64,000 bases of DNA, taken from Candidatus Moraniibacteriota bacterium. GTDB taxonomy: Bacteria; Patescibacteriota; Minisyncoccia; Moranbacterales; UBA1568. The stretch is from assembly GCA_030648835.1 (NCBI GenBank), contig JAUSGT010000002.1, positions 437,458 through 501,457 on the forward strand. The letters run 5' to 3'. Made by a program: the position numbers and the translations under genes. This document shows, piece after piece, positions 12,072 through 26,091 of this stretch. A model generated the notes under the pieces. The model searched no databases and was not told where the DNA came from. It saw nothing but the letters and a program-made list of their open reading frames with translations. The first letter of the stretch is position 1. Each line of letters starts with the position of its first letter.

Positions 12072-14633
12072 ATGATTTTCATCAAAAATTTCAATGAAAT
12101 AGGAAAAGGGGATGCCGCTCTTGCGGGTGGCAAGGGTGCTTCTTTGGGAGAAATGACACAGACCGGTATCCCGGTGCCGCCGGGTTTCGTTGTTTTGGCC
12201 GATGCGTTTGAAAAGTTTCTCGATGAGACAGATCTCAATACTGAGATTGATACTATTCTTCATACAGTCAATACGGACGAGATGCGGAGTGTCGAACACG
12301 CCTCCGAAAGGATCCAGAAATTGATTCTTGAGGCCAAGATGCCGGCAGATATCGGGAAAGAGATACAGAAAAATTTTAAAGTTCTGGATGTACAGTATGT
12401 CGCAGTCCGCTCGAGCGCCACAGCCGAGGATAGCGATTCTGCGGCCTGGGCCGGCCAGCTAGATACCTTTTTGAATACTACAGAGGAAACCTTGCTCGAG
12501 AATGTACAGAAATGCTGGGCTTCCTTGTTCACGTCGCGAGCTGTTTTCTATCGCTTCGAGAAAGAATTGCATCAGCAGAAAATTTCCGTGGCGGTCGTAG
12601 TCCAAAAAATGATCCAGTCGGAAATTTCCGGCATCGCCTTTTCCGTCCATCCGGTGACCGAAGACAGAAACCAGCTCATCATCGAAGCCGGTTGGGGTCT
12701 CGGCGAAGCCATCGTTTCCGGACAAATCACGCCGGATAGCTATGTAGTGGAAAAAGATCCACGGCGGATTATCGATACGAATATTGCTATTCAGGAACGT
12801 GGAATTTACCGTTCTTCTTCTGTCATCCCGGGCTTGACCCGGGATCCAGAAAGTAAGAGTGAGACTTCTGCGAATGAATGGCGGGAAATTCCGGAAAATA
12901 AGAGGGAGAAACAGAAGCTTTCAGAAATGCAGATTCTGGAACTCGCGGAACTGGTGATAAAAATCGAAAAGCACTACGGCTTTCCCTGTGACATCGAATG
13001 GGCTCTTATGAGGGAAAAATTCTACATCACCCAGAGCCGGCCGATCACGACACTTTCTCCACAGTCGCCGGTTTCTGAAGACTCAAAAAAAAAATTAAAA
13101 TTTGAAAAAAATATCACCGATAAATTGGAAAAGAGAATCGCTCACTACTTATCCGAGCCGATGATAAAGATGGGGCAATGGTCACTGATGCCAGTTGATA
13201 TGGAGACATGGTATGTACAGGATGTGTCTAAATACTTTGAAGAATTCTTCGGTTTCCCTAAAGGCCATCCGAATTTTTATATTTCAAAAACAGATGTCAT
13301 ATCAAATTATGCTCCGGAATCATTCTTCCCGAAACTTTTTAGTTATATTCGCAATCTTACAGAACAAGACTTTAAAGGACTAGAAAAAAAGTTGAGTATT
13401 TTTTTAAAAATAAAAAAAGATACCAAAAAAGAACTTTCGTACCTTACTAGTGATAGTTTTCCAAATCTTTCCACTACTGAACTCATTGATCTTTACAAAA
13501 AGAATCGCGATCTTATTCATCGGATAGTGATATTCGATCATTTCGGCATGTATGCTGAGAATTATTGGCCGCCCCTCATGCACGAAATTCTTACCAAGAA
13601 GTTCGGACTTATTCCGGATACGCCAGAATATCACGAAGTTTTATTTACTTTGAGCAAACCAAAGGAAATTTCTATATCGCTAGAAGAGAAACGTGATGTC
13701 CTAGGGGAAGCCCTCCGAGTCAAGACGGGAGAAGAGAGTATGAAAGAAGCTGCAAAAAAGCTCGCCGAGGATTTTGGCTGGCTACCCGTTTTCACCTATG
13801 GTACGCCGTGGGATGAACGTCATTACGAGGTGGAGTTGGAGGAACTTTCCAAGCGGGATGTAGCTTTTTTGAAAGAAGAATATGAAAAACTCAAAAATTA
13901 TTCTGATTTGCGTGATCAAGATATACAAAAGTTAGTAAAAAAACATACTATTTTACCTTTAGATCTCCAAATTTTTGTTGATTTTGGTCTGGCAGTAGAT
14001 GTTCGGAACGAGGCGGAATTCGTCGTTTCTTTGGGCGGATATTATTTATTACCGATGTACAAGGAAATGGCACGGAGATTAAAAACTTCTGAAAAAGGGC
14101 TGCGTCTGCTTTTCGAAGAGGAAATCATTGCTTGTCTCGAGGGTCGAGCTGATTCGCAAGACCTTCTGAAAGGAAAAAAGAATATCGTCGCTTGGGGTTT
14201 CGATGAGAGCATGAGAAAGCGGATAAACTTTACCGAAGAAGAGGCGTGGGCATTGCATCATCATTTTGAAGCGCATGCCAAGATTTCCGGCCAAAGCGAA
14301 TCCGATGTCAAAAAGGGCGTCTGTGCCAGTTCCGGCAAAGCCCGAGGTGTAGCGCGTATTCTCAAAAGTCCGGCAGAAAACGCGTCAGTGAAATCGGGAG
14401 ATATCCTAATCAGCTATGCTACAACTGTCGACTATCTCTCGGCTATGAAGAATGCCGCTGCCATCGTTACCGAAACAGGCGGGTTGACGTGTCACGCAGC
14501 CGTTGTTTCGCGCGAGTTCGGTATCCCGTGTATCGTCGGGCTGAAAAACGCCATGTCCGATTTCCGAGACGGTGATCTCGTCGAGGTAGATGCGGATAAT
14601 GGAGTGGTGAAAATCCTTACTAAGAGAGTGTAG
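12072..14633 (+). CDS. P1: PEP-synthase/rifampin-phosphotransferase-like three-domain protein (N-terminal PPDK_N ATP-grasp, middle domain, C-terminal PEP-utilising phosphohistidine swivel domain)
   Basis: N-terminal GGKGASLGEMTQTGIPVPPGFVV...CDIEWAL (ATP-grasp/PPDK_N). C-terminal GGLTCHAAVVSREFGIPCIVG with the His codon at 14493-14495. At 853 aa it matches the RPH-like architecture. Confidence 0.8.
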   Translation: MIFIKNFNEIGKGDAALAGGKGASLGEMTQTGIPVPPGFVVLADAFEKFLDETDLNTEIDTILHTVNTDEMRSVEHASERIQKLILEAKMPADIGKEIQKNFKVLDVQYVAVRSSATAEDSDSAAWAGQLDTFLNTTEETLLENVQKCWASLFTSRAVFYRFEKELHQQKISVAVVVQKMIQSEISGIAFSVHPVTEDRNQLIIEAGWGLGEAIVSGQITPDSYVVEKDPRRIIDTNIAIQERGIYRSSSVIPGLTRDPESKSETSANEWREIPENKREKQKLSEMQILELAELVIKIEKHYGFPCDIEWALMREKFYITQSRPITTLSPQSPVSEDSKKKLKFEKNITDKLEKRIAHYLSEPMIKMGQWSLMPVDMETWYVQDVSKYFEEFFGFPKGHPNFYISKTDVISNYAPESFFPKLFSYIRNLTEQDFKGLEKKLSIFLKIKKDTKKELSYLTSDSFPNLSTTELIDLYKKNRDLIHRIVIFDHFGMYAENYWPPLMHEILTKKFGLIPDTPEYHEVLFTLSKPKEISISLEEKRDVLGEALRVKTGEESMKEAAKKLAEDFGWLPVFTYGTPWDERHYEVELEELSKRDVAFLKEEYEKLKNYSDLRDQDIQKLVKKHTILPLDLQIFVDFGLAVDVRNEAEFVVSLGGYYLLPMYKEMARRLKTSEKGLRLLFEEEIIACLEGRADSQDLLKGKKNIVAWGFDESMRKRINFTEEEAWALHHHFEAHAKISGQSESDVKKGVCASSGKARGVARILKSPAENASVKSGDILISYATTVDYLSAMKNAAAIVTETGGLTCHAAVVSREFGIPCIVGLKNAMSDFRDGDLVEVDADNGVVKILTKRV

Positions 14634-14637
14634 TTTT

Positions 14638-15675
14638 ATGTCCAAGTTAGAATGGAGAAAAAATTGGTCTGGGAGTTGGTCATTTCTTGAGTGTTTTTAT
14701 TACGGTAAGATTTACACTATCTTACTTGAAAAGACTCACGGTATTGGAATTTCAACTGCGGCATTTATATCAAAGCAAGGCAGAAGCGACTCGTATCTCA
14801 TTGAGGATGAAGTTGCACAGTTTGGGGAGGCTCTCGCAAAAAAACTTGAAGGAGATATAAATTTAGCGGAGCAATGGGGTCAATCTGCGAAAGAAATCGG
14901 AGATAGGATTTTGCAATTTATTGAATTTCATCAGGAGAAAGAAATAACCCCACAACTCTATAATGATTTATGGGATATTGTTGAGCAGTATGCCGTAGTA
15001 GCTCTTTCTATAAAAGTCGTTGGTGATTATCTGCCAACTCATCTTTCAAAAAAACTGCTCCCTTTATTTTCGGAGATTCGCGAGTACGGAGAACCGGTAT
15101 ATACTCAGTCGGCTCTCTTTATAAAAAAATTTGCCAACCAGGTCTCAGAAATAACTTCGATCCCAGCTCAGTATGTTCTCGCATCAACAGATTCTGAAAT
15201 TAATGAATATTTTGAAACTCAGAAACTTCCTGATGTGAAAGTTCTCGCCGCTCGTTATGAGTGTGCCTTTATTTATGTACAGGAAGGGGAAATCAAAGAA
15301 ATTACAGGAAAAGAAGGCGTGGATGCATTTGAGAAACAACTGAGAGTTGAGAGCGAGTACGTCCAGGGAGCCTGTGCTTTTCCAGGAAAAGTAAAAGGAA
15401 AAGTGAGGATAATTCTTGATCCTTCAGGGGTATCAAGTTTAGAAGCAGGAACGGTACTGGTAACTGGTATGACCAGGCCAGAGTACCTCCATCTTATGAA
15501 ACAAGCTATTGCCGTAGTTACCGATGGCGGTGGTGTTCTCTCACATGCTGCTATTACTGCCCGAGAATTGAAAAAACCTTGCATTATCGGTACCAAAATC
15601 GCCACGCAAGTCTTGAAAGATGGCGATATGGTAGAGGTGGATGCGGAACGGGGGATTATTACTATTATCAAATGA
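14638..15675 (+). CDS. P2: paralog with a divergent N-terminal domain and the C-terminal phosphohistidine swivel domain; no ATP-grasp domain
   Basis: C-terminal GGGVLSHAAITARELKKPCIIGTKIATQVLKDGDMVEVDAERG with the His codon at 15544-15546. Starts 5 nt after the P1 stop. Confidence 0.7.
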   Translation: MSKLEWRKNWSGSWSFLECFYYGKIYTILLEKTHGIGISTAAFISKQGRSDSYLIEDEVAQFGEALAKKLEGDINLAEQWGQSAKEIGDRILQFIEFHQEKEITPQLYNDLWDIVEQYAVVALSIKVVGDYLPTHLSKKLLPLFSEIREYGEPVYTQSALFIKKFANQVSEITSIPAQYVLASTDSEINEYFETQKLPDVKVLAARYECAFIYVQEGEIKEITGKEGVDAFEKQLRVESEYVQGACAFPGKVKGKVRIILDPSGVSSLEAGTVLVTGMTRPEYLHLMKQAIAVVTDGGGVLSHAAITARELKKPCIIGTKIATQVLKDGDMVEVDAERGIITIIK

Positions 15676-15728
15676 ACATTCTGATATTCTGCAGAATGTC
15701 AGAATGTTTGGTAAGTGCGTGAGACAAA

Positions 15729-17111
15729 GTGAAACATATGGTTGAGAAAAAATTCGAATTTATCGCAGACAGGAATTCCGGTATCGAGGGCAGCATATAT
15801 GGTCTTTCGATGTGTTTGGAGGTTATCTGGCAGAGTAATTTGCGTAACAGCGTGAAGTTTCCGTTTTATGCTCAGATAATCGATGATAAGAAACAGCAGT
15901 GTACGGAGTGGATTGATGCGGAAGCGTATAGGGTCAATGCTTTCAACTTTCTTCGCTATTCTGAGAAGAACGGGACAGACTATCTGAAAAGCGTCAGTAA
16001 GCAAGTAACCGAAGAAACTGCTGATTTTTTTACTTTATCGGCCACACTCCTGCCAACGCTCAGGAAACTTTCTGATTTCGATCTGGCCGAAGCCTACGGC
16101 ATATTTATGAACCGTTACAATGAGATATACGGATTGGGTGCTCTGACGTACGTTTACGAGCATGATCTGTCGGAACACTTATCCCAATCTTTTGGTAAGC
16201 GCGGTAAAAACGCCACAGCCTTTTTGAGTCAGATATTGAAAACGGATTACAAGAGCTTCGTCTTTGAGAGTGATGAGCTTTTACTTGCTATAAAGAGTGA
16301 AAAAAAGGCTATAGTAAAGCAAAAATTGATTAATAGCTATTTGAAGAGTTTTTATTTTATGAGAGCGACGTATTCCTCTGCTCCCATACTTGACTCCGAA
16401 GGAGTGTTACGAATGGCTGCCGAGAGAGAGGTGCAGGAAAAATTTGAAAAAGAGAAGAACCAAAAGCCGATCGAGCTTACAGTAGAAGAAAAAGTACTTG
16501 TCTCGATACTTCAGGAAACGGAAATAATCCGCGATCAGAGAAAAAAAGCCAATCTCATCGGAATGTATATGATGTTTCGCTTTCTCGACGAGCTGTGCAA
16601 GCGGTCAGGTATTTCTTCTGAAATAGCGAGGCGGATGTTTTGGTACGAATTCATAGATGGACTGTTTGATACAGAGCGACTGCTTGCTATTCTGAAAAAG
16701 CGTACGCAAGTCAGTATCGTTTTCGATGGATCAAATACGTATTATTTAGAATATGCCGCGATACGACCCCGTCAAATCAGGAAAAATGTCACGCAATTCA
16801 AAGGAACGCCGGCTTCCTCGGGAAAAGTATCGGCCAAAGTGCGAATTGTTCTTGGTTCGAATGATTTCGAGAAATTCAAGAGGGGCGAAGTCCTCGTGAC
16901 TCAGATGACTCGGCCGGCATTTTTGCCGCTTATGAAAATAGCTGCAGCTATCGTGACGGATGAAGGCGGGCTGACATGCCACGCAGCGATTATCGCGCGG
17001 GAGTTGCATATCCCGTGTATCGTCGGTACCAAAATCGCTACGCAAGTATTGAAAGATGGTGATCTCGTTGAAGTGGACGCGGAAAAGGGATTTGTGAGGA
17101 TTCTGCAGTAA
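15729..17111 (+). CDS. P3: paralog with a divergent N-terminal domain and the C-terminal phosphohistidine swivel domain
   Basis: C-terminal GGLTCHAAIIARELHIPCIVGTKIATQVLKDGDLVEVDAEKG. The track start at 15729 is GTG; the ATG at 15738 is more likely. Confidence 0.7.
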   Translation: MKHMVEKKFEFIADRNSGIEGSIYGLSMCLEVIWQSNLRNSVKFPFYAQIIDDKKQQCTEWIDAEAYRVNAFNFLRYSEKNGTDYLKSVSKQVTEETADFFTLSATLLPTLRKLSDFDLAEAYGIFMNRYNEIYGLGALTYVYEHDLSEHLSQSFGKRGKNATAFLSQILKTDYKSFVFESDELLLAIKSEKKAIVKQKLINSYLKSFYFMRATYSSAPILDSEGVLRMAAEREVQEKFEKEKNQKPIELTVEEKVLVSILQETEIIRDQRKKANLIGMYMMFRFLDELCKRSGISSEIARRMFWYEFIDGLFDTERLLAILKKRTQVSIVFDGSNTYYLEYAAIRPRQIRKNVTQFKGTPASSGKVSAKVRIVLGSNDFEKFKRGEVLVTQMTRPAFLPLMKIAAAIVTDEGGLTCHAAIIARELHIPCIVGTKIATQVLKDGDLVEVDAEKGFVRILQ

Positions 17112-17145
17112 TTTTGGTGTTTGAGGTAGGACTAAAAAAGATAAA

Positions 17146-17173
17146 GGGGGCATCGCGCGAATGCCTCCTTTTT
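17146..17173. terminator. Bidirectional hairpin terminator between convergent P3 and the LMW-PTP gene
   Basis: GGGGGCAT-CGCGCGA-ATGCCTCC hairpin flanked by an A-run and a T-run. Confidence 0.55.
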
Positions 17174-17197
17174 ATTTACCGATTGTGGTTGTTTTTC

Positions 17198-17662
17198 TCA
17201 GAGCCCCTCGAGCGCTTTGGGTAGAGCCTGTTTGATTATTGAGGCACACGCGCCGTAGGCTTCGTGTCCTCCTCCAATCGGGTCCGGTATCCCGTCGTTT
17301 TCACCATTCAGGATTACGATGCGGTTGATCGGCGCTCCTTCATTGATCAGAGCTCGCCTGACATGATGATCCACGACGATGATTCGATCGTAGCTTGAGA
17401 GATCAAATTTTGATACATGTCGCGGAGTGTGGCTGTCGAGGTCGAGGCCTGATTCTCTCGCTATCGCAATGCTGTGTCTGTTCGCGTTGGTGAATAGATT
17501 TACCCCAGGGAACAAACCGTGTCCGGGCAAAAGCTCGTCAAGTATGCCGCAACTTTCGACGATGGCATCAATACCGCGCTCGGCAAGCGCCTGTTGTGTG
17601 AAAACCATCATAAGCGGACTGCGGGCCATATTGCCCATGCATACGCACAAGACTCTCTTCAT
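17198..17662 (-). CDS. Low-molecular-weight protein tyrosine phosphatase / arsenate-reductase fold (LMW-PTP)
   Basis: P-loop CVCMGNMARSP (CX5R) at the N-terminus and a downstream DP motif (IPDPIGG). Confidence 0.8.
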   Translation of the reverse strand: MKRVLCVCMGNMARSPLMMVFTQQALAERGIDAIVESCGILDELLPGHGLFPGVNLFTNANRHSIAIARESGLDLDSHTPRHVSKFDLSSYDRIIVVDHHVRRALINEGAPINRIVILNGENDGIPDPIGGGHEAYGACASIIKQALPKALEGL

Positions 17663-17820
17663 TGGAGACCTCTTTGGGGAAAGAACGAAAAAATAGTATA
17701 GCCTGATATGATGATTTTGTCTAGTCCAATAGATGAGTGTACAATGAAAGAAATTGTGGTATTCGTATAAGTAAGAACCTCACATAGCAGGTAAAAGAAC
17801 AATTAACATACTCGAAGGAT

Positions 17821-18441
17821 ATGGACGAAAAAATTCTTAAGTCAATGAATCATATGAAAGTAGATACTGAACTTTTTGATAAAATTTTCATGAAGGTGAA
17901 ACCCCTGCTTCGTTCCGGGAGACCGGGAGATTATGCACATATCAAGAGCGTGTATCGGACGCTCGTTCGTCTCTGCGAAAAAGAAGACTATCCAATAAAT
18001 CCGCGCATCCTCGTTCCTGCCGGAATCCTGCATGACTGTGGTTTCGGTTTTCTCAAGAAGGAACATATGTATTATTTTACCGGGCAGAAAAAAGTGACTG
18101 CGATGAAAGAAGTGATCGGCGGCCTGACACTTGCCTATATTCCGGTGTGCCTTCAAGAATTCCAATTCTCCGATCAAGAAATAGAAGGCATAAAATATAT
18201 CGTGACATATTCCGATGAAAGCGTGCTTCCTATGGAAAATCCATCGCTTGAACTTCAGATTCTCCATGATCTCAATCTGTATGACCGTTTTCTGCCACAT
18301 CGGCTGAAGACCCTGAATACTCTTTATTCCGATCCCGTGAAAAGAAAGGCAGTTCTCGAAGATTCTTTGAGGTACATTATCTTGTCCACTTTCAAGAAAA
18401 AAGCGGAAAAACTGATGAAGAAGATAACGGAAAAATTTTGA
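17821..18441 (+). CDS. HD-domain metal-dependent phosphohydrolase
   Basis: H...HD...D pattern: AHIKSV, GILHDCG and LHDLNLYD. Confidence 0.55.
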   Translation: MDEKILKSMNHMKVDTELFDKIFMKVKPLLRSGRPGDYAHIKSVYRTLVRLCEKEDYPINPRILVPAGILHDCGFGFLKKEHMYYFTGQKKVTAMKEVIGGLTLAYIPVCLQEFQFSDQEIEGIKYIVTYSDESVLPMENPSLELQILHDLNLYDRFLPHRLKTLNTLYSDPVKRKAVLEDSLRYIILSTFKKKAEKLMKKITEKF

Positions 18442-18455
18442 CTTTTTGAAGTAAT

Positions 18456-20012
18456 ATGAATCTGAGACAAGTTTTGGACAGAAAGGGGATGTACATATAT
18501 CCCTGGTACATATCGGATATTGCGGTTACCAAAGATATCGCTTCCATCGCCCCGACCAATGTAAAGAAGGTTTTTGTCAGTATCAAAGACAACCTTTTGA
18601 CCATGTATTATGATACTGATGCTGTCGACAAGATTGCCATATACTTTTTGGATAAAATTCTTGTAAACGATATATTTTTTGATGAGGTTATCAAAAATAT
18701 TTATCACTGTGCCGATGATTTGCTTTCTTTTTGCAGAGAAAGCGCGGAGAAAAAAGTTGAAAAAATGTCAGATGAGGAGTTGCTGAGTATTTACCGGACG
18801 TATACGGAAAAATTACGCACTCTAAGGATATGGGGCTGGGTGCCTCCGATTCTGGACGGTATGACCGACCCGTTCTTGAGCCAGCATCTGCTTACGCGAT
18901 TCGGTGAATTTATGGTGACAAAAGGACTCTCTGATAAGGTGAGCGAGTATTATTCGACACTCAGTTCCAGCGAGAGAGAAAGCGAGGTACAAGGAGAAGA
19001 GATAGCTCGTTTGACACTGGCACAAAGTATTGTGGATAGCAGCCAGAGCGAAGAAATCATCCAGTGTATCAAGAATACCGATGAGGGTGCTTTACAGGAG
19101 AAATTTACATCGTTCTATGCACTTCTGGAAAAGCATACGCAAGCATTCGGCGCTCTCACCTATTCTTATAGTGGACCGGCGATGACCATCGCGTATCTGC
19201 TCAAGGCATTGGCCGATGATTTCGAACGAGGAGATATAAGGGGACAGAGAAAGAAAATTCAAGATCACTTCCGGAATATCAAAGAGGAAAAGAGAAAGAT
19301 TATCGAGGCGGTCGATTTGTCGGCAGATTTACAAAGGGAATTCCGAGTGTCGGCAGAACTGATGTATATCAAGGATTGGCGCAAGGGAGCCTATCAGAAA
19401 TCGTATCTCCTGATGGATGTTATTTTGCAAGAGTTAGCCAAGCGTTTGGATATATCTCTGAAAGAGATCAAGTTTCTTGTGTTTGACGAAGTGCGGGAAG
19501 CACTGACCGGAGGAAAGGGAACATACTATAAGGCTCTGCTTGAAGAGCGTCTGAAACACTGCTGCTATAGCGTGGAAAATGGTATTATTGTTGTTTCACA
19601 GGGTAAAGCTTGTGAAGTGTTGGAGGAAAAAATAAAGAAAGAAAGTGTGAGTATGGAACCGACGAAGATGCCAATAGGGGATATCCGCGAGATAAAAGGA
19701 TCTGTCGCGTACAGCGGGTATGCCAAGGGTATTGTGAAGATTGTGCTGACCGTAGAGGATACTGACAAGGTCAATGAAGGTGATATTCTCGTTTCTTCGG
19801 CGACCAATCCCGATCTGATGCTGGCGATGAGGAAGGCCGCCGCCTTCGTGACCGATACGGGAGGCATTATGTCGCATGCTTCTATCGTCTCGCGAGAAAT
19901 GAAAAAACCCTGCGTCGTTGGGACGAAAATAGCCACACATATATTCAAGGATGGTGATCTTGTGGAGGTAGATGCCAAGAACGGTGTAGTAAGGATTCTC
20001 AAAAAGAAATGA
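18456..20012 (+). CDS. P4: paralog with a divergent N-terminal domain and the C-terminal phosphohistidine swivel domain
   Basis: C-terminal GGIMSHASIVSREMKKPCVVGTKIATHIFKDGDLVEVDAKNG. Confidence 0.7.
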   Translation: MNLRQVLDRKGMYIYPWYISDIAVTKDIASIAPTNVKKVFVSIKDNLLTMYYDTDAVDKIAIYFLDKILVNDIFFDEVIKNIYHCADDLLSFCRESAEKKVEKMSDEELLSIYRTYTEKLRTLRIWGWVPPILDGMTDPFLSQHLLTRFGEFMVTKGLSDKVSEYYSTLSSSERESEVQGEEIARLTLAQSIVDSSQSEEIIQCIKNTDEGALQEKFTSFYALLEKHTQAFGALTYSYSGPAMTIAYLLKALADDFERGDIRGQRKKIQDHFRNIKEEKRKIIEAVDLSADLQREFRVSAELMYIKDWRKGAYQKSYLLMDVILQELAKRLDISLKEIKFLVFDEVREALTGGKGTYYKALLEERLKHCCYSVENGIIVVSQGKACEVLEEKIKKESVSMEPTKMPIGDIREIKGSVAYSGYAKGIVKIVLTVEDTDKVNEGDILVSSATNPDLMLAMRKAAAFVTDTGGIMSHASIVSREMKKPCVVGTKIATHIFKDGDLVEVDAKNGVVRILKKK

Positions 20013-21367
20013 ATATAAGTGATTTTCAAAATCGTAAATGGGTGGTGCTGGGAGCCAATTGTTACCCGCTGTATGCCGATTCTTTCGCGGAGCCGGTGAG
20101 CCAGGGGTACTACCGGACATATGGGATCCCCAATGAGGTGCTGGGGGTTTTCAACAAGGATTTTTTCGAATGGTTGTATGACAACTCACAACTCGTTGCA
20201 TTGTCAGAGAAATTATTGCCAGGTTTGTTGAGCACACCTTGGAATTACTATGATGAATGGCAAAAGAATGCGAAATCCTTTTCTGTTTTTCATGAATCAG
20301 TTATAGAAAAAGATTTTACAGCATTGTCCCATAAAGAGTTGGGTAAATTGGCAAAAGAATACCATCGTATTTTTTGGCTTCAGTTTGCTCCCAGTAATAT
20401 TATTGAGCCGCTTAGCTATTATTTTCAAAGCCGTTTCAAAAAAATGCTTACCCTCAAAGGTACGAAGGAAAATGAAATAGATCAGCTAATGGATTACTAT
20501 GGCCGATCCAAGTATCCAAACTATATTAAAGAATGTCTGGCTGAATACCGTTTGGCAAAAAATGAAGACGTCATACAAGCAGTTTTGAAGAAATATGCAT
20601 ACCTGGCGAACGATTACTTGGGGCCAAAAGTATTAACCAAAGCGTACCTGGATGAACTGTTAAAACAAGAAACGCATGAGCCGCATGTTGGCGCAGTCCC
20701 TGCTGTTTCTCCCGAAACGCAGTTGTTGCTAGAAGTTTTTCAGATGGTGGCTACTATCCAGGATGTCAGGAAAGCTTATAGCTTGATGATGATAGCTGGC
20801 GTACACAATTTTGCGATCGAATACGCCAAGCGGCTTAAACTGCCGGATACTCTTATATGGTATGCTCTCTGGAAAGAAATATATGCAGGCGATGTCAATG
20901 AAAAAAAGCTGGAAGAGCGTCGCGAACATAGCGTCATACTCTGGGGGAAAAAAGAAACGGTTGCTTGTGAAGGAATAGAGGCTGAGAAATTGGCAGCAGA
21001 TATCCATACGTTGGTTTTCGGCAGTACCAAAGATGTGAAAAAAGTGAAAGGCATATGTGCTTCTCCGGGAAAAGTCACGGGGCGAGCCGTCGTTGTGATG
21101 CATCCTGATGAATTCCACAAGGTGAAAAAAGGAGACGTGCTTTTTACTATGATGACGCGCCCGGAATATTTACCGGTTATGCAGCTGGCAGCCGCATTTG
21201 TCACTGATGAGGGAGGCATCACGTCGCACGCGGCGATTGTGGCGAGGGAAATGAAAAAACCATGTATCATAGCTACGAAAATAGGCACGAAAGTCGTGAA
21301 AGACGGTGATCTCGTCGAGGTAGACGCGGATAAGGGGATAGTGAGGATATTAGAAAAAAAGAAATAG
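20009..21367 (+). CDS. P5: paralog with a divergent N-terminal domain and the C-terminal phosphohistidine swivel domain
   Basis: C-terminal GGITSHAAIVAREMKKPCIIATKIGTKVVKDGDLVEVDADKG. Its start overlaps the P4 stop (ATGA). Confidence 0.7.
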   Translation: MNISDFQNRKWVVLGANCYPLYADSFAEPVSQGYYRTYGIPNEVLGVFNKDFFEWLYDNSQLVALSEKLLPGLLSTPWNYYDEWQKNAKSFSVFHESVIEKDFTALSHKELGKLAKEYHRIFWLQFAPSNIIEPLSYYFQSRFKKMLTLKGTKENEIDQLMDYYGRSKYPNYIKECLAEYRLAKNEDVIQAVLKKYAYLANDYLGPKVLTKAYLDELLKQETHEPHVGAVPAVSPETQLLLEVFQMVATIQDVRKAYSLMMIAGVHNFAIEYAKRLKLPDTLIWYALWKEIYAGDVNEKKLEERREHSVILWGKKETVACEGIEAEKLAADIHTLVFGSTKDVKKVKGICASPGKVTGRAVVVMHPDEFHKVKKGDVLFTMMTRPEYLPVMQLAAAFVTDEGGITSHAAIVAREMKKPCIIATKIGTKVVKDGDLVEVDADKGIVRILEKKK

Positions 21368-21432
21368 AAAAACTGCCAAAATTGGCAGTAGATAATAAGC
21401 ACGCTTTGCAATTATACACCTTTTTGGTGGTT

Positions 21433-21461
21433 TTGTCAATGTCAGACTTATCCTGTATTAT
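21433..21461 (+). promoter_or_regulatory. Candidate promoter TTGTCA-17-TATTAT upstream of the riboflavin kinase gene
   Basis: TTGTCA at 21433-21438, a 17-nt spacer and TATTAT at 21456-21461. Confidence 0.35.
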
Positions 21462-21520
21462 TGAAGAATCGGATGTAAGTAATACCGAATGCTTACGTCA
21501 AAAGAATATAGGTTAATCGT

Positions 21521-21895
21521 ATGTCAGGAACAAAACAGGTGCCTCTTTTGGTACAAAAAGGAAAAGTGGAGCGCGGAACGAAAATGGCCCGGAAGGTGGG
21601 ATATCCTACGGTGAATATTCACTATGATGATCCGGAAATTCTTACCGGTACGTATGCCGGGAAAGTAACGGTGGACAATACCGAATACCGTGCCGCGATC
21701 TATGTCAATCAAGAGCGGGAAGTATTGGAGGCGCATCTTTTGGATTTTTCGGGGGATTTGTATGGAAAAGAGATCACCGTTGTATTGCTGGAACGGTTGG
21801 TAGAAGCGAAAGAGTTCCGGGGAAGACTGGACGAACAAAGTTTCATTGATTGGGCAGTAAAAGAGGTACAGAAATACTTCAACATAAATTCCTAA
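21521..21895 (+). CDS. Stand-alone riboflavin kinase (flavokinase) domain
   Basis: ARKVGYPTVNIHY...GTYAGKV...YRAAIYV...EAHLLDF..DLYGKEITV matches the RibF C-terminal flavokinase domain. No adenylyltransferase domain is present. Confidence 0.75.
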   Translation: MSGTKQVPLLVQKGKVERGTKMARKVGYPTVNIHYDDPEILTGTYAGKVTVDNTEYRAAIYVNQEREVLEAHLLDFSGDLYGKEITVVLLERLVEAKEFRGRLDEQSFIDWAVKEVQKYFNINS

Positions 21896-21989
21896 TATCT
21901 AATTTCTAATTCCTAATAAAAAAGTAGAAATTATAAAATTAAAGATTTCATTAGATATTAGATATTGGTAATTAGAAATTTTTAAACGT
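21896..21989. promoter_or_regulatory. AT-rich island with reiterated palindromic motifs (AATATCTAAT/ATTAGATATT, TTCTAATT/AATTAGAA) between the riboflavin kinase gene and ribE
   Basis: Several copies of TAGATATT and AATTAGAA in both orientations within 94 nt. The base composition is far more AT-rich than the flanks. Confidence 0.4.
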
Positions 21990-22580
21990 ATGTTTACCGG
22001 CATTGTTCAAAAAATAGCGCCGCTTCTTTCTGCCACTCCCCAAGGGGAGTGTTTGCGGGTGCGGATCAAAAAGCCTCTTGGCTGGAAATTGACTCCGGGG
22101 CAAAGCGTGGCTGTGGATGGGGTGTGTTCCACGGTAGTTTTATGCAAGTCAGATTTTTTCGAAGTGGAGTATATGCAAGAGACGCTTATCAAAACAACAG
22201 TGAAAACATTTAAAAAAAACCAAGTTGTCAATCTCGAGCGATCTCTGACTCTCAAAGATTTTGTAGACGGAGGTTTGGTCCAGGGGCATGTGGATATGCG
22301 TGGCAAGGTAAAGAAGGTAGAAAAAACAGGGGAAATGGCCCTCCTTGAAATAACTCTTCCGGAAGCATTAAAGAAATATATCGCTCCTATCGGGTCTGTC
22401 ACAGTGAATGGTGTCAGTTTGACAGTGGCTCGGGTAAAGAAGGATACTTTCAGTATGGCACTTATCCCATACACGTTGGAACATACCAATCTCGGGCTTT
22501 TGAAAAAGGGTGACATGGTCAATGTAGAAGTGGATATTCTGGCGCGGTACATCGTCAATGCGCGAATAAAGGAAAGATAA
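21990..22580 (+). CDS. ribE: Riboflavin synthase alpha chain
   Basis: MFTGIVQ N-terminus and two lumazine-binding repeats (VAVDGVCSTV and VTVNGVSLTV). Confidence 0.85.
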   Translation: MFTGIVQKIAPLLSATPQGECLRVRIKKPLGWKLTPGQSVAVDGVCSTVVLCKSDFFEVEYMQETLIKTTVKTFKKNQVVNLERSLTLKDFVDGGLVQGHVDMRGKVKKVEKTGEMALLEITLPEALKKYIAPIGSVTVNGVSLTVARVKKDTFSMALIPYTLEHTNLGLLKKGDMVNVEVDILARYIVNARIKER

Positions 22581-22600
22581 TTCAGGTAACTTAGAGAAAT

Positions 22601-23068
22601 ATGCAAGTAAAAAACGCCGCCAAAAGAATAACAAAAAACGCTTCAGCGCTCCAGATCGGTATCGTGGTATCCAACTATTACGCCGATACGATTACCGGAA
22701 AACTTTTGCTTGGAGCAGAGGCTGTTCTGAAAGAATGGAAAGTGTTGCCAAAAAATATTACCGTGGTGCGTGTTCCGGGGTGTTTCGAAATTCCTTATGG
22801 CTGTATCACACTTCTAAAACAAAAAAAGTACGACGCTCTGATTACTTTGGGCTGCATTGTCAAAGGTGAGACGGAACACGATCGCTATATCGCTTCGGCG
22901 GTTTCGCAGGGCATTATGGATCTGACTTTGGCACACGGGGTGCCGATAGCGTTCGGCGTGCTTACCGTCAACAACTTGGCTCAGGCAAAAGCCCGTTCCA
23001 CGGGAAAAAATAACAAAGGAGTGGAAGCTGCTATCGCCGCGTTAGAGGCAACTTTCTTGAAAAAATGA
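22601..23068 (+). CDS. ribH: 6,7-dimethyl-8-ribityllumazine synthase
   Basis: Typical RibH motifs: IGIVVS..., VPGCFEIP, LGCIVKGETEHDRYI and GVLTV. Confidence 0.85.
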   Translation: MQVKNAAKRITKNASALQIGIVVSNYYADTITGKLLLGAEAVLKEWKVLPKNITVVRVPGCFEIPYGCITLLKQKKYDALITLGCIVKGETEHDRYIASAVSQGIMDLTLAHGVPIAFGVLTVNNLAQAKARSTGKNNKGVEAAIAALEATFLKK

Positions 23069-23997
23069 TAATACTGGGTGACTGTATGTTTGAAGAAATT
23101 CATAATAATGAAGCAAGCGAACAAGAAGAAGTAGTTTTGAAGGTGATTATTCAGAGACATGGGCCTAAACTGAGCGCTTCCGGAGAAAAAAACCAGCTGG
23201 CGACTTATTTTGCGGATTCAGTGAAACAAGGGTTTCAGGTAACCGGGATATCTGAGGGAGAGGGATTAGTTCATGTAAATTCAAGTCCTGTTACGAGGGC
23301 AGCAGACACGGCAAAGATTGATATTGCTGAACTTTCTCATACACAGCATCGTTTTAAAGATATGGTTGTAAAGAAAGAGGCACTTGCTGTTTTGTTTCAA
23401 CCGTTGGCCGATGCAGAAGATCCGCGGTTCGCGCGGGATTTGGAGAGGATAGTAAAAATGCAAAAAAAAATTGAGCCGGAAGTGCGCGAAGAAGTCCTTT
23501 TGGAGGAGTCAAATCTTGTGAGTGAAGAAAAAGAGGCGGAAATACGCAATGTCATCGATATGAGAGTTCTTACGGTATTGTTCAATGATGTGCATACTAA
23601 CAAGAAAACATTTGAAACGTCTTATACAGAACTAGCCGACAAGTTTGCGGAGAGATACAAGGGATTTTTGCAGCATATTGGTATGCTGAAGGAAAGAAAG
23701 CGCGAGGGAGGACGTCAGCCAGTAGACGAACCTTACGTGCAGGTAGATATTACCCATTCATTTCCTGTGATGTGTTTTTTGAAAAAATACCTGGTATTTG
23801 CAGATGGAGTGTCTGCAGAAAGCCTTTCCCCAGAAGATTTTTTTGAAAGAACAGGCGGGATTATCCGTGAGTCCGGTTTTATGGAAATGCTTTATATTTC
23901 CAACAGTAACAAGGATTTGAAAGAGGAAAAGATGGCCATAGCTATCCGCGGGTCTTTTGGTAAAGGGCAAGAATTTTCAGGGGAAGTTTCTTTTTAA
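23065..23997 (+). CDS. Hypothetical protein, possibly a histidine-phosphatase (PGAM/SixA-like) fold
   Basis: VIIQRHGPK near the N-terminus resembles the catalytic RHG motif. A later His lies in ITHSFPV. The assignment is weak. Confidence 0.35.
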   Translation: MIILGDCMFEEIHNNEASEQEEVVLKVIIQRHGPKLSASGEKNQLATYFADSVKQGFQVTGISEGEGLVHVNSSPVTRAADTAKIDIAELSHTQHRFKDMVVKKEALAVLFQPLADAEDPRFARDLERIVKMQKKIEPEVREEVLLEESNLVSEEKEAEIRNVIDMRVLTVLFNDVHTNKKTFETSYTELADKFAERYKGFLQHIGMLKERKREGGRQPVDEPYVQVDITHSFPVMCFLKKYLVFADGVSAESLSPEDFFERTGGIIRESGFMEMLYISNSNKDLKEEKMAIAIRGSFGKGQEFSGEVSF

Positions 23998-24007
23998 ATG
24001 ATTTTTT

Positions 24008-25588
24008 ATGCATGAAAAAATAAATTGGTTTTGGATGCATCGGAGAAATGCCAGTCTGCATCACTTCAGTTTTTTGATGACCGGTATGGCCAAGAGAGGA
24101 TGGTCGCCGGTGGTCGATTTTTGGTTTGATAACCAGGCAGTTGTCGGAGTACCAGGCAAAGGCTGTTATGTTTTTTATGATAAAGACCAGCTGAAAAGCG
24201 GGGTGAAGTATAAGAATATCCAAGACAGTATTGATAGTAATCCTGCCTTTGTAAAGGATTTTCAACGAAGAACGGATGAAATTTTTGGTGCGTTGTTTTT
24301 CAAATGCCTTGATATTGAAACAGACAATCTTTCTCTCCTGAGCGACAAGGAACTCCATAGGCTCTACCTCGGCTTCATAGATGCTATGACTGTTGGTCCG
24401 CTCATAACCGTACAACTTTTCGGTATTGAAGCTTGTTTTGATGAGAATTACCGGATCATACAATTTCTCAGGAAACGTTTGCAGGAGCTTGGCAAAGGAA
24501 AAGAATTTGAAACATATAAAGGTATTCTCTCGGTGAATATCGGAGAGACGGTGGCATTTACGGAAAAGAAAAATTTTTACCAGGTTGCGGCGGAAATGGC
24601 AAAAAATAAAGATATTTACGCGCTTTTTCAGAATGAGTCGTTGCAAGAAATAAGCGAGAAATTGAAAAAGTATCCTCGAGAGAACGCTCTTTTCGAGCGA
24701 CATACCAAGAAGTACGAGTGGGTGAATACCGAATACGTGAGCGGTGGCTGGTCTCGTGAGAAGTGGATTGGTGAATTCAAAACGGCGTTGACAGATGTTC
24801 TATTGCCGGATGAACAATTGAAGATTATTTTGCAGAGTTTTGAAGATCTCAATGCGGAAAGAAAAAAGACCATTGAAGAACTGGCTCCGCCCAAGGATGT
24901 TTTGCATGCTCTCAACTGTCTTTCTGAACTGATAGCGCAAAGAGATTGGACAAAAGGGTATTTTACGAAGGCTCTATTGAGCTACAATGTGCTTCTTGAT
25001 GAGATTGCCAGGAGGATCGGTAAAACACGAGAGGATATTCTGCTCTATTCTTATCATGAAATCGAAGCGTACTTTTTGGACGGAACGATTATTCCACAGG
25101 AAGAAATAGATGATCGGAAGAGCAACGGGTTTGTCATTCTCATCAAGCATGGGAGTTTCGAACTGGTTACCGGAAAAAAGAAAATACAGGAAGTTATTGA
25201 GAGTGAAAAAATTTCAGAACCGTTTGAAAAGGTGGCACATATTACCGAATTTAAGGGGCTGGGAGTTTCGCGGGGATGTATCCGGGGGAAGGTGCGGGTT
25301 TTGGAAGATGCCTCGAAGATTTCAGAGCTTGTAGAAGGAGAGATACTGGTCACCTACATGACGACAATCGAATTCATTCCTGCTTTTCGAAAAGCGGCGG
25401 CGGTAGTAACCGATGAAGGTGGAATGTCGTGTCATGCGGCGATCGTAAGTCGAGAATTCAAATTACCTTGTGTCGTCGGCACAAAAGTAGCGACACGCGT
25501 ATTGGAGACGGGCGATGAAGTCGAGGTAGACGCGGATAATGGAAAAGTAAAAATATTGACTAAACACTCATTTATTCAACAAACTTGA
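24008..25588 (+). CDS. P6: paralog with a divergent N-terminal domain and the C-terminal phosphohistidine swivel domain
   Basis: C-terminal GGMSCHAAIVSREFKLPCVVGTKVATRVLETGDEVEVDADNG. Confidence 0.7.
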   Translation: MHEKINWFWMHRRNASLHHFSFLMTGMAKRGWSPVVDFWFDNQAVVGVPGKGCYVFYDKDQLKSGVKYKNIQDSIDSNPAFVKDFQRRTDEIFGALFFKCLDIETDNLSLLSDKELHRLYLGFIDAMTVGPLITVQLFGIEACFDENYRIIQFLRKRLQELGKGKEFETYKGILSVNIGETVAFTEKKNFYQVAAEMAKNKDIYALFQNESLQEISEKLKKYPRENALFERHTKKYEWVNTEYVSGGWSREKWIGEFKTALTDVLLPDEQLKIILQSFEDLNAERKKTIEELAPPKDVLHALNCLSELIAQRDWTKGYFTKALLSYNVLLDEIARRIGKTREDILLYSYHEIEAYFLDGTIIPQEEIDDRKSNGFVILIKHGSFELVTGKKKIQEVIESEKISEPFEKVAHITEFKGLGVSRGCIRGKVRVLEDASKISELVEGEILVTYMTTIEFIPAFRKAAAVVTDEGGMSCHAAIVSREFKLPCVVGTKVATRVLETGDEVEVDADNGKVKILTKHSFIQQT

Positions 25589-25975: not shown

Positions 25976-26091
25976 AGAGGTGGATTGGTCTAAGAAGGTA
26001 TACATATATTTTAACACAACAGCGTACAGCTTGTATTCTTGGCGTGGACACCGTACCATAAGAGTGAAGATAAAAGATAAATGACCATAGT

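What the first reader, a model, noticed from the sequence alone, without database searches (positions are those of the whole stretch)
17198..18441. Candidate phosphatases embedded in the phosphohistidine-domain paralog array (LMW-PTP, HD, plus an RHG-motif protein at 23065-23997)
An LMW-PTP with the CVCMGNMARSP P-loop lies on the - strand, convergent with P3 (17198-17662). An HD-domain phosphohydrolase (17821-18441) immediately precedes P4 and P5 in the same orientation. A 310-aa protein with a histidine-phosphatase-like RHG motif (VIIQRHGPK, 23065-23997) precedes P6 by 11 nt. Three different phosphoester or phospho-His hydrolase folds interleaved with six phospho-His carrier proteins suggests a coherent phosphorylation/dephosphorylation module rather than a chance neighbourhood.
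Basis: inference. Interest (0 to 1): 0.65.

Follow-up and report, generated by a model that had tools for sequence, protein, structure and literature searches.

The report
Phosphatases paired with split dikinase paralogs
In this Candidatus Moranbacteria genome piece, three real phosphatase-type genes sit inside a row of six ATP-driven small-molecule kinase paralogs, and comparison with related genomes shows that at least two of them are each locked to one particular kinase paralog, a pairing not found described in the literature searched.

Summary
All three genes exist as described and have the claimed folds. The LMW-PTP passes Pfam (57 bits) with an intact CX5RS loop and DP motif. The HD protein misses the Pfam cut-off (17.4 vs 22 bits), but its AF2 model matches HD proteins (YpgQ, TM 0.61-0.67) and H..HD..D is invariant. 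The 310-aa protein has no Pfam hit, yet its model (pLDDT 90.7) matches only histidine phosphatases and R31/H32/R78/H231 are invariant.

The "phospho-His carriers" P1-P6 are components of split rifampin-phosphotransferase/HpeHI-type small-molecule dikinases. There is one ATP-grasp (in P1) and six divergent substrate domains, each with a C-terminal swivel His.

Synteny supports specific pairs, not one block:
- The 310-aa protein directly precedes a P6-type paralog in 10 of 10 loci, and both are absent together from a close relative.
- The HD protein abuts a P gene in 8 of 8 loci, a P4-type in 7.
- The LMW-PTP link is thinner: three close relatives plus one distant Parcubacterium.

Other arrays also carry HAD, Metallophos and further His_Phos genes.

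Most likely each phosphatase hydrolyses the small-molecule phosphoester made by its partner dikinase, or a derivative of it, as HpeD does for HpeHI. Direct phospho-His dephosphorylation (SixA-like) remains open. Substrates are unknown.

The parts
12072..14633 (+). P1: single-chain RPH-like dikinase with an ATP-grasp (residues ~1-345), a middle domain, and a C-terminal swivel domain with His808 in GGLTCHAA. It carries the only ATP-grasp in the window.
   Evidence: Pfam PPDK_N 1.1e-96 and PEP-utilizers 2.1e-24. PDB sequence hits to RPH-Lm 5fbs/5hv1 show the same domain order. No other ATP-grasp or swivel hit elsewhere in the window. His position.
14638..15675 (+). P2: 345-aa HpeH-like paralog with a short N-domain and a swivel His303.
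   Evidence: PEP-utilizers 1.1e-22; His position. It is absent from the close relative L013.
15729..17111 (+). P3 (N-domain group g2): 460-aa HpeH-like paralog with swivel His418. It is the convergent neighbour of the LMW-PTP.
   Evidence: PEP-utilizers 2.2e-26. Orthologues sit next to the LMW-PTP in L005 and L013, and next to a HAD gene in L007.
17143..17171 (.). Terminator-like hairpin (11-bp stem, T-runs on both strands) between the convergent P3 and LMW-PTP genes.
17198..17662 (-). LMW-PTP-family phosphatase, 154 aa, with P-loop C8-MGNMA-R14-S15 and D127-P128.
   Evidence: Pfam LMWPc 57.4 bits. Motifs invariant. PDB LMW-PTP sequence matches. A 50%-identical homologue is the convergent neighbour of a 1442-aa protein made of an ATP-grasp plus three swivel-His units in L012.
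17663..17820 (.). 158-nt divergent intergenic region between the LMW-PTP and HD genes, with promoter-like sites on both strands (17723-17695 on the minus strand, 17717-17745 on the plus strand).
   Evidence: These are consensus matches only.
17821..18441 (+). Divergent HD-domain metal-dependent phosphohydrolase, 206 aa, with H40, H71-D72, H149-D150 and D155 invariant.
   Evidence: It always lies inside P arrays and is directly adjacent to a P4-type paralog in 7 of 8 loci.
18456..20012 (+). P4 (N-domain group g1): 518-aa HpeH-like paralog with swivel His474. Partner of the HD protein.
   Evidence: PEP-utilizers 5.3e-24. An NCBIfam RPH-type model aligns over residues 111-517. The g1 members are found in exactly the HD-containing loci.
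20009..21367 (+). P5 (group g3): 452-aa HpeH-like paralog with swivel His407. Its start overlaps the P4 stop by 4 nt.
23065..23997 (+). RHG310: a new long-insert member of the histidine-phosphatase superfamily. The probable CDS is 23086-23997 (303 aa). Catalytic set R31, H32, R78, H231, with a three-helix cap at residues ~120-214.
   Evidence: The family is tiny: 32 cluster representatives out of 1.84 billion.
24008..25588 (+). P6 (group g0): 526-aa HpeH-like paralog with swivel His476. Obligate downstream partner of RHG310.
   Evidence: PEP-utilizers 8.5e-24. The RedH model aligns over residues 180-517. A g0 orthologue lies directly after the RHG310 homologue in 10 of 10 loci.
21521..23068 (+). 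Interleaved context, not shown to belong to the system: riboflavin kinase (21521-21895), riboflavin synthase (21990-22580) and lumazine synthase (22601-23068). An FMN adenylyltransferase-like gene lies at 25568-26059 on the minus strand.
   Evidence: Pfam. Flavin genes adjoin P arrays in Moranbacteria loci (L007, L009, L010, L013). They are absent beside the RHG310-P6 pair in L001, L003, L011, L024, L025 and L026.

Best explanation
The locus is an array of split rifampin-phosphotransferase (RPH)/HpeHI-type small-molecule dikinases with dedicated phosphohydrolase partners.

Proposed mechanism:
1. One ATP-grasp module (the N-terminus of P1; a stand-alone protein in relatives) uses ATP to phosphorylate the swivel histidine of P1-P6.
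2. Each paralog's divergent N-terminal domain binds a different small molecule, which receives the phosphate.
3. Individual paralogs come with their own phosphatase: RHG310 with P6-type, HD with P4-type, and probably LMW-PTP with P3-type.
4. The phosphatase most likely hydrolyses the phosphoester of that paralog's product, or of a derivative of it. This gives phosphorylate, then trap or transform, then dephosphorylate, as HpeD does after HpeHI.

Shown here: the folds, the intact catalytic residues, the domain architecture and the conserved one-to-one adjacency.

Inferred: charging of the paralogs in trans, small-molecule rather than protein substrates, and the direction and purpose of the cycle. 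The substrates are unknown.
For: Folds and catalytic residues:
- LMW-PTP.
- HD.
- RHG310. A profile-profile comparison links it to Pfam-validated ~300-aa His_Phos_1 proteins from other arrays (probability 79%, E 1.6e-5, with the RHG, SPxxRAxxTA and second-His motifs aligned).

Architecture:
- P1 is PPDK_N plus a C-terminal PEP-utilizers domain with no PEP/pyruvate barrel, the same domain order as RPH-Lm.
- P2-P6 have the swivel domain only, each with GGxx[S/C]H.
- RPH/PigC-type NCBIfam models align into the N-domains of P4 and P6.
- 56 N-domains from 15 loci form just 4 BLAST-linked components at 1e-3, but 34 groups at 1e-30.

One ATP-grasp for many swivel units:
- The window has 1 ATP-grasp and 6 swivel domains.
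- L013 and L026 have stand-alone ATP-grasp genes.
- L012 has a fusion of one ATP-grasp with three units.
- L020 has at least 11 paralogs.

Pairing:
- An RHG310 homologue is immediately followed by a g0 (P6-type) paralog in 10 of 10 loci. The spacing runs from a 20-nt overlap to a 71-nt gap, mostly under 15 nt.
- Both genes are missing together in the close relative L013.
- HD directly abuts a g1 (P4-type) paralog in 7 loci, three of them with a 4-nt overlap, and another P gene in the eighth.
- No discordant locus was seen.

Other arrays carry further phosphoesterase folds that were not used as queries:
- HAD.
- His_Phos_1 at 27-30 bits.
- Metallophos at 32 bits.

Precedent:
- HpeHI, CreHI and PpsAB are two-component dikinases. 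HpeI is the ATP-grasp and HpeH is the RIF-binding-like domain plus swivel (PMC12167813).
- The Hpe cluster encodes the phosphatase HpeD, which acts on a downstream phosphorylated product (PMC9618137).

The cap of RHG310 holds invariant polar residues (D125, Q133, R161, N162, D165, R197). Its top structural hits include capped branch-2 acid phosphatases and phytases, which act on small molecules.
Against: - No substrate is identified. No intervening transforming enzyme is conserved next to the pairs. L003 and L025 hold only ATP-grasp/RHG310/P6 or RHG310/P6. A kinase plus a phosphatase acting on the same group would therefore be a futile cycle unless trapping, activation or regulation is the point.
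- Histidine-phosphatase-superfamily members can dephosphorylate phospho-His proteins (SixA on NPr and Ndk: PMC7948535, PMC12934123).
- All loci were retrieved with the phosphatases as queries. The reverse question (does every P6-type or P4-type paralog have its phosphatase?) is untested.
- LMW-PTP support rests on only 3 homologues, two of them over 90% identical.
- HD fold-match E-values are marginal (0.018), and Pfam is below its cut-off.
Confidence: 0.55

Rival explanations
1. Phospho-histidine protein phosphatases. RHG310, and perhaps HD and LMW-PTP, dephosphorylate the swivel phospho-His of their partner paralog. This would reset or throttle the dikinase, as SixA does for NPr and Ndk. It is the first reader's implied reading.
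For: - RHG310 has the histidine-phosphatase fold and catalytic set.
- SixA, of the same superfamily, removes phosphate from the phospho-His of the PTS carrier NPr and of Ndk (PMC7948535, PMC6282199, PMC12934123).
- The swivel domain is homologous to the His domain of PTS enzyme I (NCBIfam PtsI hits).
- Tight operon coupling, including 4-nt overlaps, would fit a protein-protein partnership.
- No transforming enzyme is conserved between kinase and phosphatase.
Against: - The swivel domains of the six paralogs are 42-61% identical to one another. A generic phospho-His phosphatase would therefore not need strict pairing with one N-domain type.
- Yet RHG310 tracks only g0 and HD tracks only g1.
- From general knowledge: HD, HAD and Metallophos enzymes have no known phospho-His protein phosphatase members, and LMW-PTPs act on aryl phosphates, phosphotyrosine or phosphoarginine.
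- RHG310 has a ~130-residue cap, whereas SixA (about 160 aa) has almost none. This is an inference from the model's secondary structure.
Confidence: 0.2
2. Phosphoryl relay. The phosphatase-fold proteins are not hydrolases here. They act as covalent phospho-acceptors (His32 in RHG310, Cys8 in the LMW-PTP, Asp in HAD). They take the phosphate from the swivel His and pass it to the final substrate, or act as mutases, in the way PTS EIIB cysteines and PGAM-type mutases do.
For: - Three of the associated folds (His_Phos, LMW-PTP, HAD) work through covalent phospho-enzyme intermediates (established enzymology).
- The LMW-PTP gives a faint PTS_IIB Pfam hit (E 0.046).
- HpeH alone catalyses phosphotransfer between substrates (PMC12167813), so the chemistry is reversible.
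- The triad ATP-grasp - RHG310 - P6 forms a self-contained operon in L003, L004 and L009.
Against: - HD and Metallophos enzymes do not form covalent intermediates, so the idea cannot cover all partners.
- P6 already has its own large, highly conserved N-domain (55-68% identity). In RPH and HpeH that domain is the acceptor-binding site.
- There is no direct evidence.
Confidence: 0.1
3. Unrelated neighbours. Some or all of the phosphatases are housekeeping genes that merely sit in a conserved Moranbacteria gene order. Examples would be RHG310 as a riboflavin-pathway phosphatase downstream of ribH, or the LMW-PTP as an independent protein phosphatase.
For: - The LMW-PTP is on the opposite strand, in its own transcription unit behind a terminator. 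Only 3 homologues were found, two of them from near-identical loci.
- RHG310 follows ribH directly in the window and in L009.
- The histidine phosphatase RosC acts on a flavin phosphate and appears among the fold hits.
Against: - RHG310 keeps P6 but not ribH as its neighbour in L001, L003, L011, L023, L024, L025 and L026.
- HD lies inside P arrays in 8 of 8 loci with otherwise different gene content.
- The one distant LMW-PTP homologue (50% identity) is again the convergent neighbour of an ATP-grasp/swivel protein, in an unrelated context.
- Within the window the enrichment gives P = 0.0013.
Confidence: 0.1

Closest known systems
Two-component small-molecule dikinases HpeHI / CreHI / PpsAB with pathway phosphatases such as HpeD (PMC12167813, PMC9618137)
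   Same: - The ATP-grasp component is separable from a component made of a RIF-binding-like domain plus a C-terminal swivel His with the GGxx[S/C]H motif.
- There is no PEP/pyruvate barrel.
- A phosphatase is encoded in the same cluster.
   Different: - Here one ATP-grasp accompanies 6 swivel paralogs (up to 11 or more in relatives), with fast-diverging substrate domains.
- There are no carboxylase, P450 or dehydrogenase genes between kinase and phosphatase.
- The partners are LMW-PTP, HD and a new histidine-phosphatase subfamily rather than a NagD-type HAD.
- The host is a reduced CPR bacterium, not an aromatic-compound degrader.
- The substrates are unknown.
Rifampin phosphotransferase RPH (PMC4844700)
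   Same: P1 has the same three-domain order: ATP-grasp, middle domain, C-terminal swivel His. Sequence matches to 5fbs/5hv1 cover both ends.
   Different: P2-P6 lack the ATP-grasp. The middle domains are not detectably similar to the RIF-binding domain by pairwise search, only through family profiles. There is no evidence of an antibiotic substrate.
Histidine phosphatase superfamily: branch-1 enzymes (PGAM, CobC, TIGAR, RosC) and SixA
   Same: RHG310 has the RHG motif, a second Arg within SPxxRAxDTA, a second His after a beta-strand, and the alpha/beta core.
   Different: - No Pfam His_Phos_1 or His_Phos_2 hit.
- A cap of about 130 residues made of three long helices, plus a C-terminal beta extension.
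- The family is confined to 32 cluster representatives.
- It is always encoded directly upstream of one dikinase paralog.
HD-domain phosphohydrolases such as B. subtilis YpgQ (5dqv)
   Same: All-helical fold (TM 0.61-0.67) with conserved H..HD..D metal ligands.
   Different: About 17% identity. Below the Pfam cut-off. Only 18 homologues were found, all inside P arrays.
Bacterial LMW-PTPs (Wzb, YfkJ)
   Same: Pfam LMWPc, a CX5R(S) P-loop and a DP acid loop.
   Different: No BY-kinase or capsule genes lie nearby. The P-loop reads CMGNMARS rather than CxGNICRS. There is an extra invariant Cys38 and a 10-residue insertion. Its neighbours are swivel-His dikinase genes.

Membership tests
LMW-PTP (Pfam PF01451) | Profile match above the curated cut-off | tested here: met
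   57.4 bits against 23.2, E 2.4e-15, covering residues 4-149.
LMW-PTP (Pfam PF01451) | N-terminal C-X5-R-(S/T) phosphate-binding loop and a downstream D-P general-acid motif | tested here: met
   C8-MGNMA-R14-S15 and D127-P128, invariant in 4 sequences and aligned to the Wzb and PTP motifs.
LMW-PTP (Pfam PF01451) | Phosphotyrosine-protein or aryl-phosphate hydrolase activity | not testable with these tools
   Needs an enzyme assay.
HD-domain phosphohydrolase superfamily (PF01966) | Profile match above the curated cut-off | tested here: not met
   17.4 bits against 22, E 0.0055, covering residues 38-77 only. A profile-versus-PDB sequence search found nothing.
HD-domain phosphohydrolase superfamily (PF01966) | Conserved H...HD...D metal-ligand pattern | tested here: met
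   H40, H71-D72, H149-D150 and D155 are invariant in 18 sequences.
HD-domain phosphohydrolase superfamily (PF01966) | All-alpha HD fold | tested here: met
Histidine phosphatase superfamily (PF00300 / PF00328) | Profile match above the curated cut-off | tested here: not met
   No Pfam or NCBIfam hit at E <= 0.1. A profile-versus-PDB sequence search found nothing.
Histidine phosphatase superfamily (PF00300 / PF00328) | Catalytic quartet: RHG (Arg plus nucleophilic His), a second Arg and a second His | tested here: met
   R31, H32, G33, R78 (within SPVxRAxDTA) and H231 (within DxSHSF) are invariant in 36 sequences.
Histidine phosphatase superfamily (PF00300 / PF00328) | Alpha/beta core fold of the superfamily | tested here: met
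   AF2 pLDDT 90.7. All 32 Foldseek hits with E <= 1e-3 are superfamily members, best 4e-6, with TM (target-normalised) 0.5-0.56.
Histidine phosphatase superfamily (PF00300 / PF00328) | Profile-level homology to validated members | tested here: inconclusive
   hhalign against ~300-aa array proteins, three of which pass Pfam His_Phos_1: probability 79%, E 1.6e-5, 242 columns, motifs in register.
Two-component RPH-family small-molecule dikinase (HpeHI-like) | ATP-grasp (PPDK_N) nucleotide-binding component | tested here: met
   P1 residues 17-338, E 1.1e-96. It is a stand-alone 313-349-aa protein in L003, L009, L010, L013 and L026.
Two-component RPH-family small-molecule dikinase (HpeHI-like) | A second component with a C-terminal swivel domain carrying the catalytic His in GGxx[S/C]H, and no PEP/pyruvate-binding barrel | tested here: met
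   PEP-utilizers at the extreme C-terminus of P1-P6. His808, 303, 418, 474, 407 and 476. No PEP-utilizers_C hit.
Two-component RPH-family small-molecule dikinase (HpeHI-like) | N-terminal domain homologous to the RIF-binding / HpeH substrate domain | tested here: inconclusive
   RPH/PigC-type NCBIfam models extend into the N-domains of P4 (111-517 aligned to 486-892) and P6 (180-517 aligned to RedH 532-878). Pairwise PDB search matches only the swivel part.
Two-component RPH-family small-molecule dikinase (HpeHI-like) | Trans-phosphorylation of the swivel His by the separate ATP-grasp, and transfer to a small molecule | not testable with these tools
   Needs biochemistry.

The most novel reading that the evidence does not exclude
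CPR bacteria run a PTS-like, ATP-driven branched phosphoryl network. One ATP-grasp charges a dozen swivel-His paralogs. Each paralog is coupled to a dedicated phosphatase-fold protein (His, Cys or Asp nucleophile). That protein acts as the terminal phosphoryl acceptor or transferase, or as a release valve. Together they would form a previously unrecognised system for capturing many host-derived metabolites by reversible phosphorylation.
Probability: 0.1. Interest if true: 0.85.

Novelty: new variant of a known kind. Interest (0 to 1): 0.6.

Why it matters
Two-component RPH-type dikinases were recognised only recently, and only in aromatic-compound catabolism. This work finds them in Parcubacteria-group CPR bacteria, including Moranbacteria, as arrays with one ATP-grasp and many substrate modules. 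It also shows that specific paralogs are hard-wired to specific phosphatases, one of which is a new histidine-phosphatase subfamily invisible to Pfam.

This gives concrete protein pairs (RHG310/P6, HD/P4) whose biochemistry can be tested. The results could show what small molecules these metabolically minimal, host-dependent bacteria phosphorylate, and whether phosphate serves as a trap, an activating group or a regulatory mark. It would also annotate several families currently labelled "hypothetical" or mislabelled "PEP synthase".

Tried and rejected
- Profile searches of the RHG310 and HD alignments against PDB sequences gave only noise. Fold assignment therefore had to come from AF2 plus Foldseek.
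- The genome-contig scan with the RHG310 profile gave only 4 loci. The metagenome scan with the HD profile gave 8.
- Viral-contig scans with the RHG310 and P6 profiles found nothing. There is therefore no evidence that these genes are phage cargo.
- Rfam found no riboswitch or other RNA in the window.
- Literature searches for these arrays in CPR or Patescibacteria found nothing.
- I considered RHG310 as a riboflavin-pathway phosphatase because it follows ribH. I rejected this as a general explanation because 7 of 10 loci have the RHG310-P6 pair without flavin genes nearby.
- I considered the LMW-PTP as an arsenate reductase or a YwlE-type arginine phosphatase. The DP motif is present and the P-loop lacks the YwlE Thr. 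No ars genes were seen among the window genes I annotated. This reasoning draws on general knowledge.
- I checked whether the 468-aa RHG310 homologue P0015 is a fusion with P6. Its C-terminal extension is unrelated.
- The L012 triple-unit protein could not be assigned to the P3-type group.
Full report
**Organism and gene map.** The 310-aa protein is 100% identical to a hypothetical protein of a Candidatus Moranbacteria MAG, so the window comes from a CPR bacterium. ORF listing with Pfam and NCBIfam gives this order:
- HtrA, ProRS, UMP kinase, IspH
- P1 (12072-14633), P2, P3
- LMW-PTP (minus strand)
- HD, P4, P5
- riboflavin kinase, riboflavin synthase, lumazine synthase
- the 310-aa protein (RHG310), P6
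- FMN adenylyltransferase-like gene (minus strand), glycosyltransferase, ABC-F

**Checking the observation.** All three candidate phosphatases are real.
- *LMW-PTP.* It passes Pfam (57.4 bits, cut-off 23.2). C8-X5-R14-S15 and D127-P128 are invariant, and it matches solved LMW-PTPs.
- *HD protein.* It is below the Pfam cut-off (17.4 vs 22 bits). Its 18 homologues keep H40, H71-D72, H149-D150 and D155. An AF2 model (pLDDT 86.6) matches HD proteins best (YpgQ, TM 0.61/0.67, probability 1.0), although the E-value is marginal at 0.018.
- *RHG310.* It has no Pfam or NCBIfam hit. In 36 homologues R31, H32, G33, R78 (within SPVxRAxDTA) and H231 (within DxSHSF) are invariant. The AF2 model is confident (pLDDT 90.7, pTM 0.90). 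Every significant Foldseek hit is a histidine-phosphatase-superfamily structure (phytase, CobC, TIGAR, PGAM, RosC), with a best E of 4e-6.
- *RHG310 and validated His_Phos_1 proteins.* A profile-profile comparison links RHG310 to ~300-aa proteins from other arrays, three of which pass Pfam His_Phos_1. Probability is 79% and E is 1.6e-5, with the motifs in register.
- *Start codon.* The likely start is M8 at 23086.
- *Family size.* The family is tiny: 32 cluster representatives among 1.84 billion.

**What the "phospho-His carriers" are.**
- P1 has an N-terminal PPDK_N ATP-grasp (E 1e-96) and a C-terminal PEP-utilizers swivel domain, with no PEP/pyruvate barrel. That is the domain order of rifampin phosphotransferase (PMC4844700).
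- P2-P6 have only the C-terminal swivel domain, each with GGxx[S/C]H, preceded by 230-410-residue N-domains.
- RPH/PigC-type family models align into the N-domains of P4 and P6.
- This matches the recently defined two-component dikinases HpeHI, CreHI and PpsAB. There HpeI is the ATP-grasp and HpeH is the RIF-binding-like domain plus swivel (PMC12167813).
- The window holds one ATP-grasp and six swivel domains.
- Relatives have stand-alone ATP-grasp proteins (L003, L009, L010, L013, L026), a 1442-aa fusion of one ATP-grasp with three units (L012), and at least 11 paralogs in a row (L020).
- Within the window the swivel domains are 42-61% identical. The N-domains are far more diverged.
- Across 15 loci, 56 N-domains fall into 34 groups at BLAST 1e-30 but only 4 linked components at 1e-3.

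**Synteny test.** I fetched loci through homologues of each phosphatase and annotated them by BLAST against the window proteins and by Pfam.
- *RHG310.*
  - A P6-type (group g0) paralog directly follows it in 10 of 10 non-redundant loci: the window, L001, L003, L009, L010, L011, L023, L024, L025 and L026.
  - Spacing runs from a 20-nt overlap to a 71-nt gap, mostly under 15 nt.
  - The flanking genes otherwise differ between loci.
  - P6 N-domains (55-68% identical) are better conserved than RHG310 itself (44-53%).
- *Close relative L013/L014.* Here the LMW-PTP is 94% identical. The order is IspH, ATP-grasp, P3, LMW-PTP, HD, P4, P5, RibK, RibE, RibH, FMNAT. RHG310 and P6 are therefore missing together.
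- *HD.* It lies inside a P array in 8 of 8 loci.
  - It directly abuts a P4-type (g1) paralog in 7 of them. That paralog is downstream in the window, L005 and L013. It is upstream in L007, L020 and L021 (4-nt overlap) and in L018 (86-nt gap).
  - The most distant HD homologue (L027) is followed by a P protein with an N-terminal HTH_17/MerR domain.
- *Discordance.* No locus has RHG310 without g0, g0 without RHG310, HD without a P neighbour, or g1 without HD.
- *LMW-PTP.* Only three homologues exist in the searchable database. Two come from close relatives with the same arrangement. The third (50% identity, a Parcubacterium, L012) is again the convergent neighbour of an ATP-grasp/swivel protein, in a quite different context next to Prim-Pol and recombinase genes.
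- *Other phosphoesterase genes in these arrays.* They also hold phosphoesterase genes that were not used as queries:
  - HAD in L005 and L007.
  - His_Phos_1 in L007, L018 and L020.
  - Metallophos in L024.
  - "RHS"-variant histidine-phosphatase-like proteins in L010 and L026, identified by eye.
  - Sources.
- *Within the window.* Three of the six non-P genes embedded in the array are phosphatase-fold, against none of about 40 annotated genes outside it. Fisher P = 0.0013, a post hoc test.

**Caveats.** All loci were retrieved with the phosphatases as queries. The reverse question, whether every P6-type or P4-type paralog carries its phosphatase, is untested. Several loci are close relatives of the window.

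**Local transcription signals.** A strong hairpin with T-runs on both sides (17143-17171) separates the convergent P3 and LMW-PTP genes. The 158-nt LMW-PTP/HD intergenic region holds promoter-like sites on both strands. These are pattern matches only.

**Interpretation.** The best-supported reading is a set of split RPH/HpeHI-type small-molecule dikinases, each of several paired with its own phosphohydrolase.
- *Precedent.* In the Hpe pathway the dikinase phosphorylates the substrate. A later enzyme needs the phosphate. The cluster-encoded phosphatase HpeD then removes it from the modified product (PMC9618137).
- *Arguments for small-molecule phosphatase substrates here.*
  - Strict pairing with one substrate-domain type, although the swivel domains are all alike.
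  - The variety of phosphatase folds.
  - The large cap of RHG310 with invariant polar residues (D125, Q133, R161, N162, D165, R197).
  - These are inferences, not demonstrations.
- *Main rival.* Direct phospho-His dephosphorylation, as by SixA of the same superfamily (PMC7948535, PMC6282199, PMC12934123). It gains weight because no transforming enzyme is conserved next to the RHG310-P6 pair (L003, L025).
- *Other readings.* A relay role for the covalent-intermediate folds is possible but cannot cover HD or Metallophos. Pure chance neighbourhood is effectively excluded for RHG310 and HD, but not fully for the LMW-PTP.
- *Riboflavin genes.* They adjoin arrays in several Moranbacteria loci but are absent beside most RHG310-P6 pairs, so a flavin link is not supported as general.

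**Novelty.** The component parts belong to known superfamilies, and the two-component dikinase concept is published. Three features were not found described in the literature searched: the one-ATP-grasp-to-many-paralog arrays in CPR genomes, the one-to-one coupling of paralogs to phosphatases, and the RHG310 subfamily itself. I rate the finding a new variant of a known kind, of moderate to high interest.

Noticed in passing
window 12072-25588; L020:2730-20582; L012:9367-13695: The array has one ATP-grasp for six swivel-His paralogs. A related metagenome locus (L020) has at least 11 paralogs in a row. A Parcubacterium (L012) fuses one ATP-grasp with three (X + swivel-His) units in a 1442-aa protein.
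   Followed up: partly
window 23065-25588 compared with L013:4440-5067: A close relative (GCA_030699645) has ribH followed directly by the FMNAT-like gene. RHG310 and P6 are therefore a two-gene insertion or deletion. P2 is also absent there, and P1 is only a 349-aa stand-alone ATP-grasp.
   Followed up: yes
window 21521-23068 and 25568-26059: Only late flavin genes are present in the window: riboflavin kinase, riboflavin synthase, lumazine synthase and an FMN adenylyltransferase-like gene. No ribA, ribB or ribD is seen. The same block adjoins P arrays in several Moranbacteria loci (L007, L009, L010, L013).
   Followed up: partly
L027:3653-5257: A 534-aa protein fuses an N-terminal HTH_17/MerR DNA-binding domain to a C-terminal swivel-His domain, next to the most distant HD homologue. 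This hints that some paralogs may be phospho-regulated transcription factors.
   Followed up: no
L001:1373-8682 and L012:14249-19291: In two loci the dikinase/phosphatase genes lie beside mobile-element-like genes (serine recombinase/resolvase, DnaG zinc ribbon or Prim-Pol, DUF5659). Scans of viral contigs with the RHG310 and P6 profiles found no relatives.
   Followed up: partly
window 51478-53154: The SecD-like protein carries a PpiC-type rotamase (PPIase) domain inserted between the SecD first domain and the P1 head. This is an unusual fusion.
   Followed up: no
window 3194-5203: A 669-aa TrwB/TraG-like type IV coupling-protein ATPase with a C-terminal treble-clef zinc finger. It is preceded by a protein with sigma-70 region 4 and HARE-HTH domains (730-1803).
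   Followed up: no
window 1-64000: GC skew is positive in every 2-kb bin and nearly all genes are on the + strand. The whole window therefore lies on one replichore's leading strand.
   Followed up: no
L010:14709-15641 and L026:9796-10659: About 300-aa proteins with an R-H-S (not R-H-G) motif and a late G-H motif sit in other arrays, next to a P paralog or an ATP-grasp gene. They have no Pfam hit and may be a further divergent histidine-phosphatase-like family.
   Followed up: no
window 62158-64000: A large protein that runs off the window end combines a right-handed beta-helix with an LCAT/PGAP1-like alpha/beta-hydrolase (lipase) domain.
   Followed up: no
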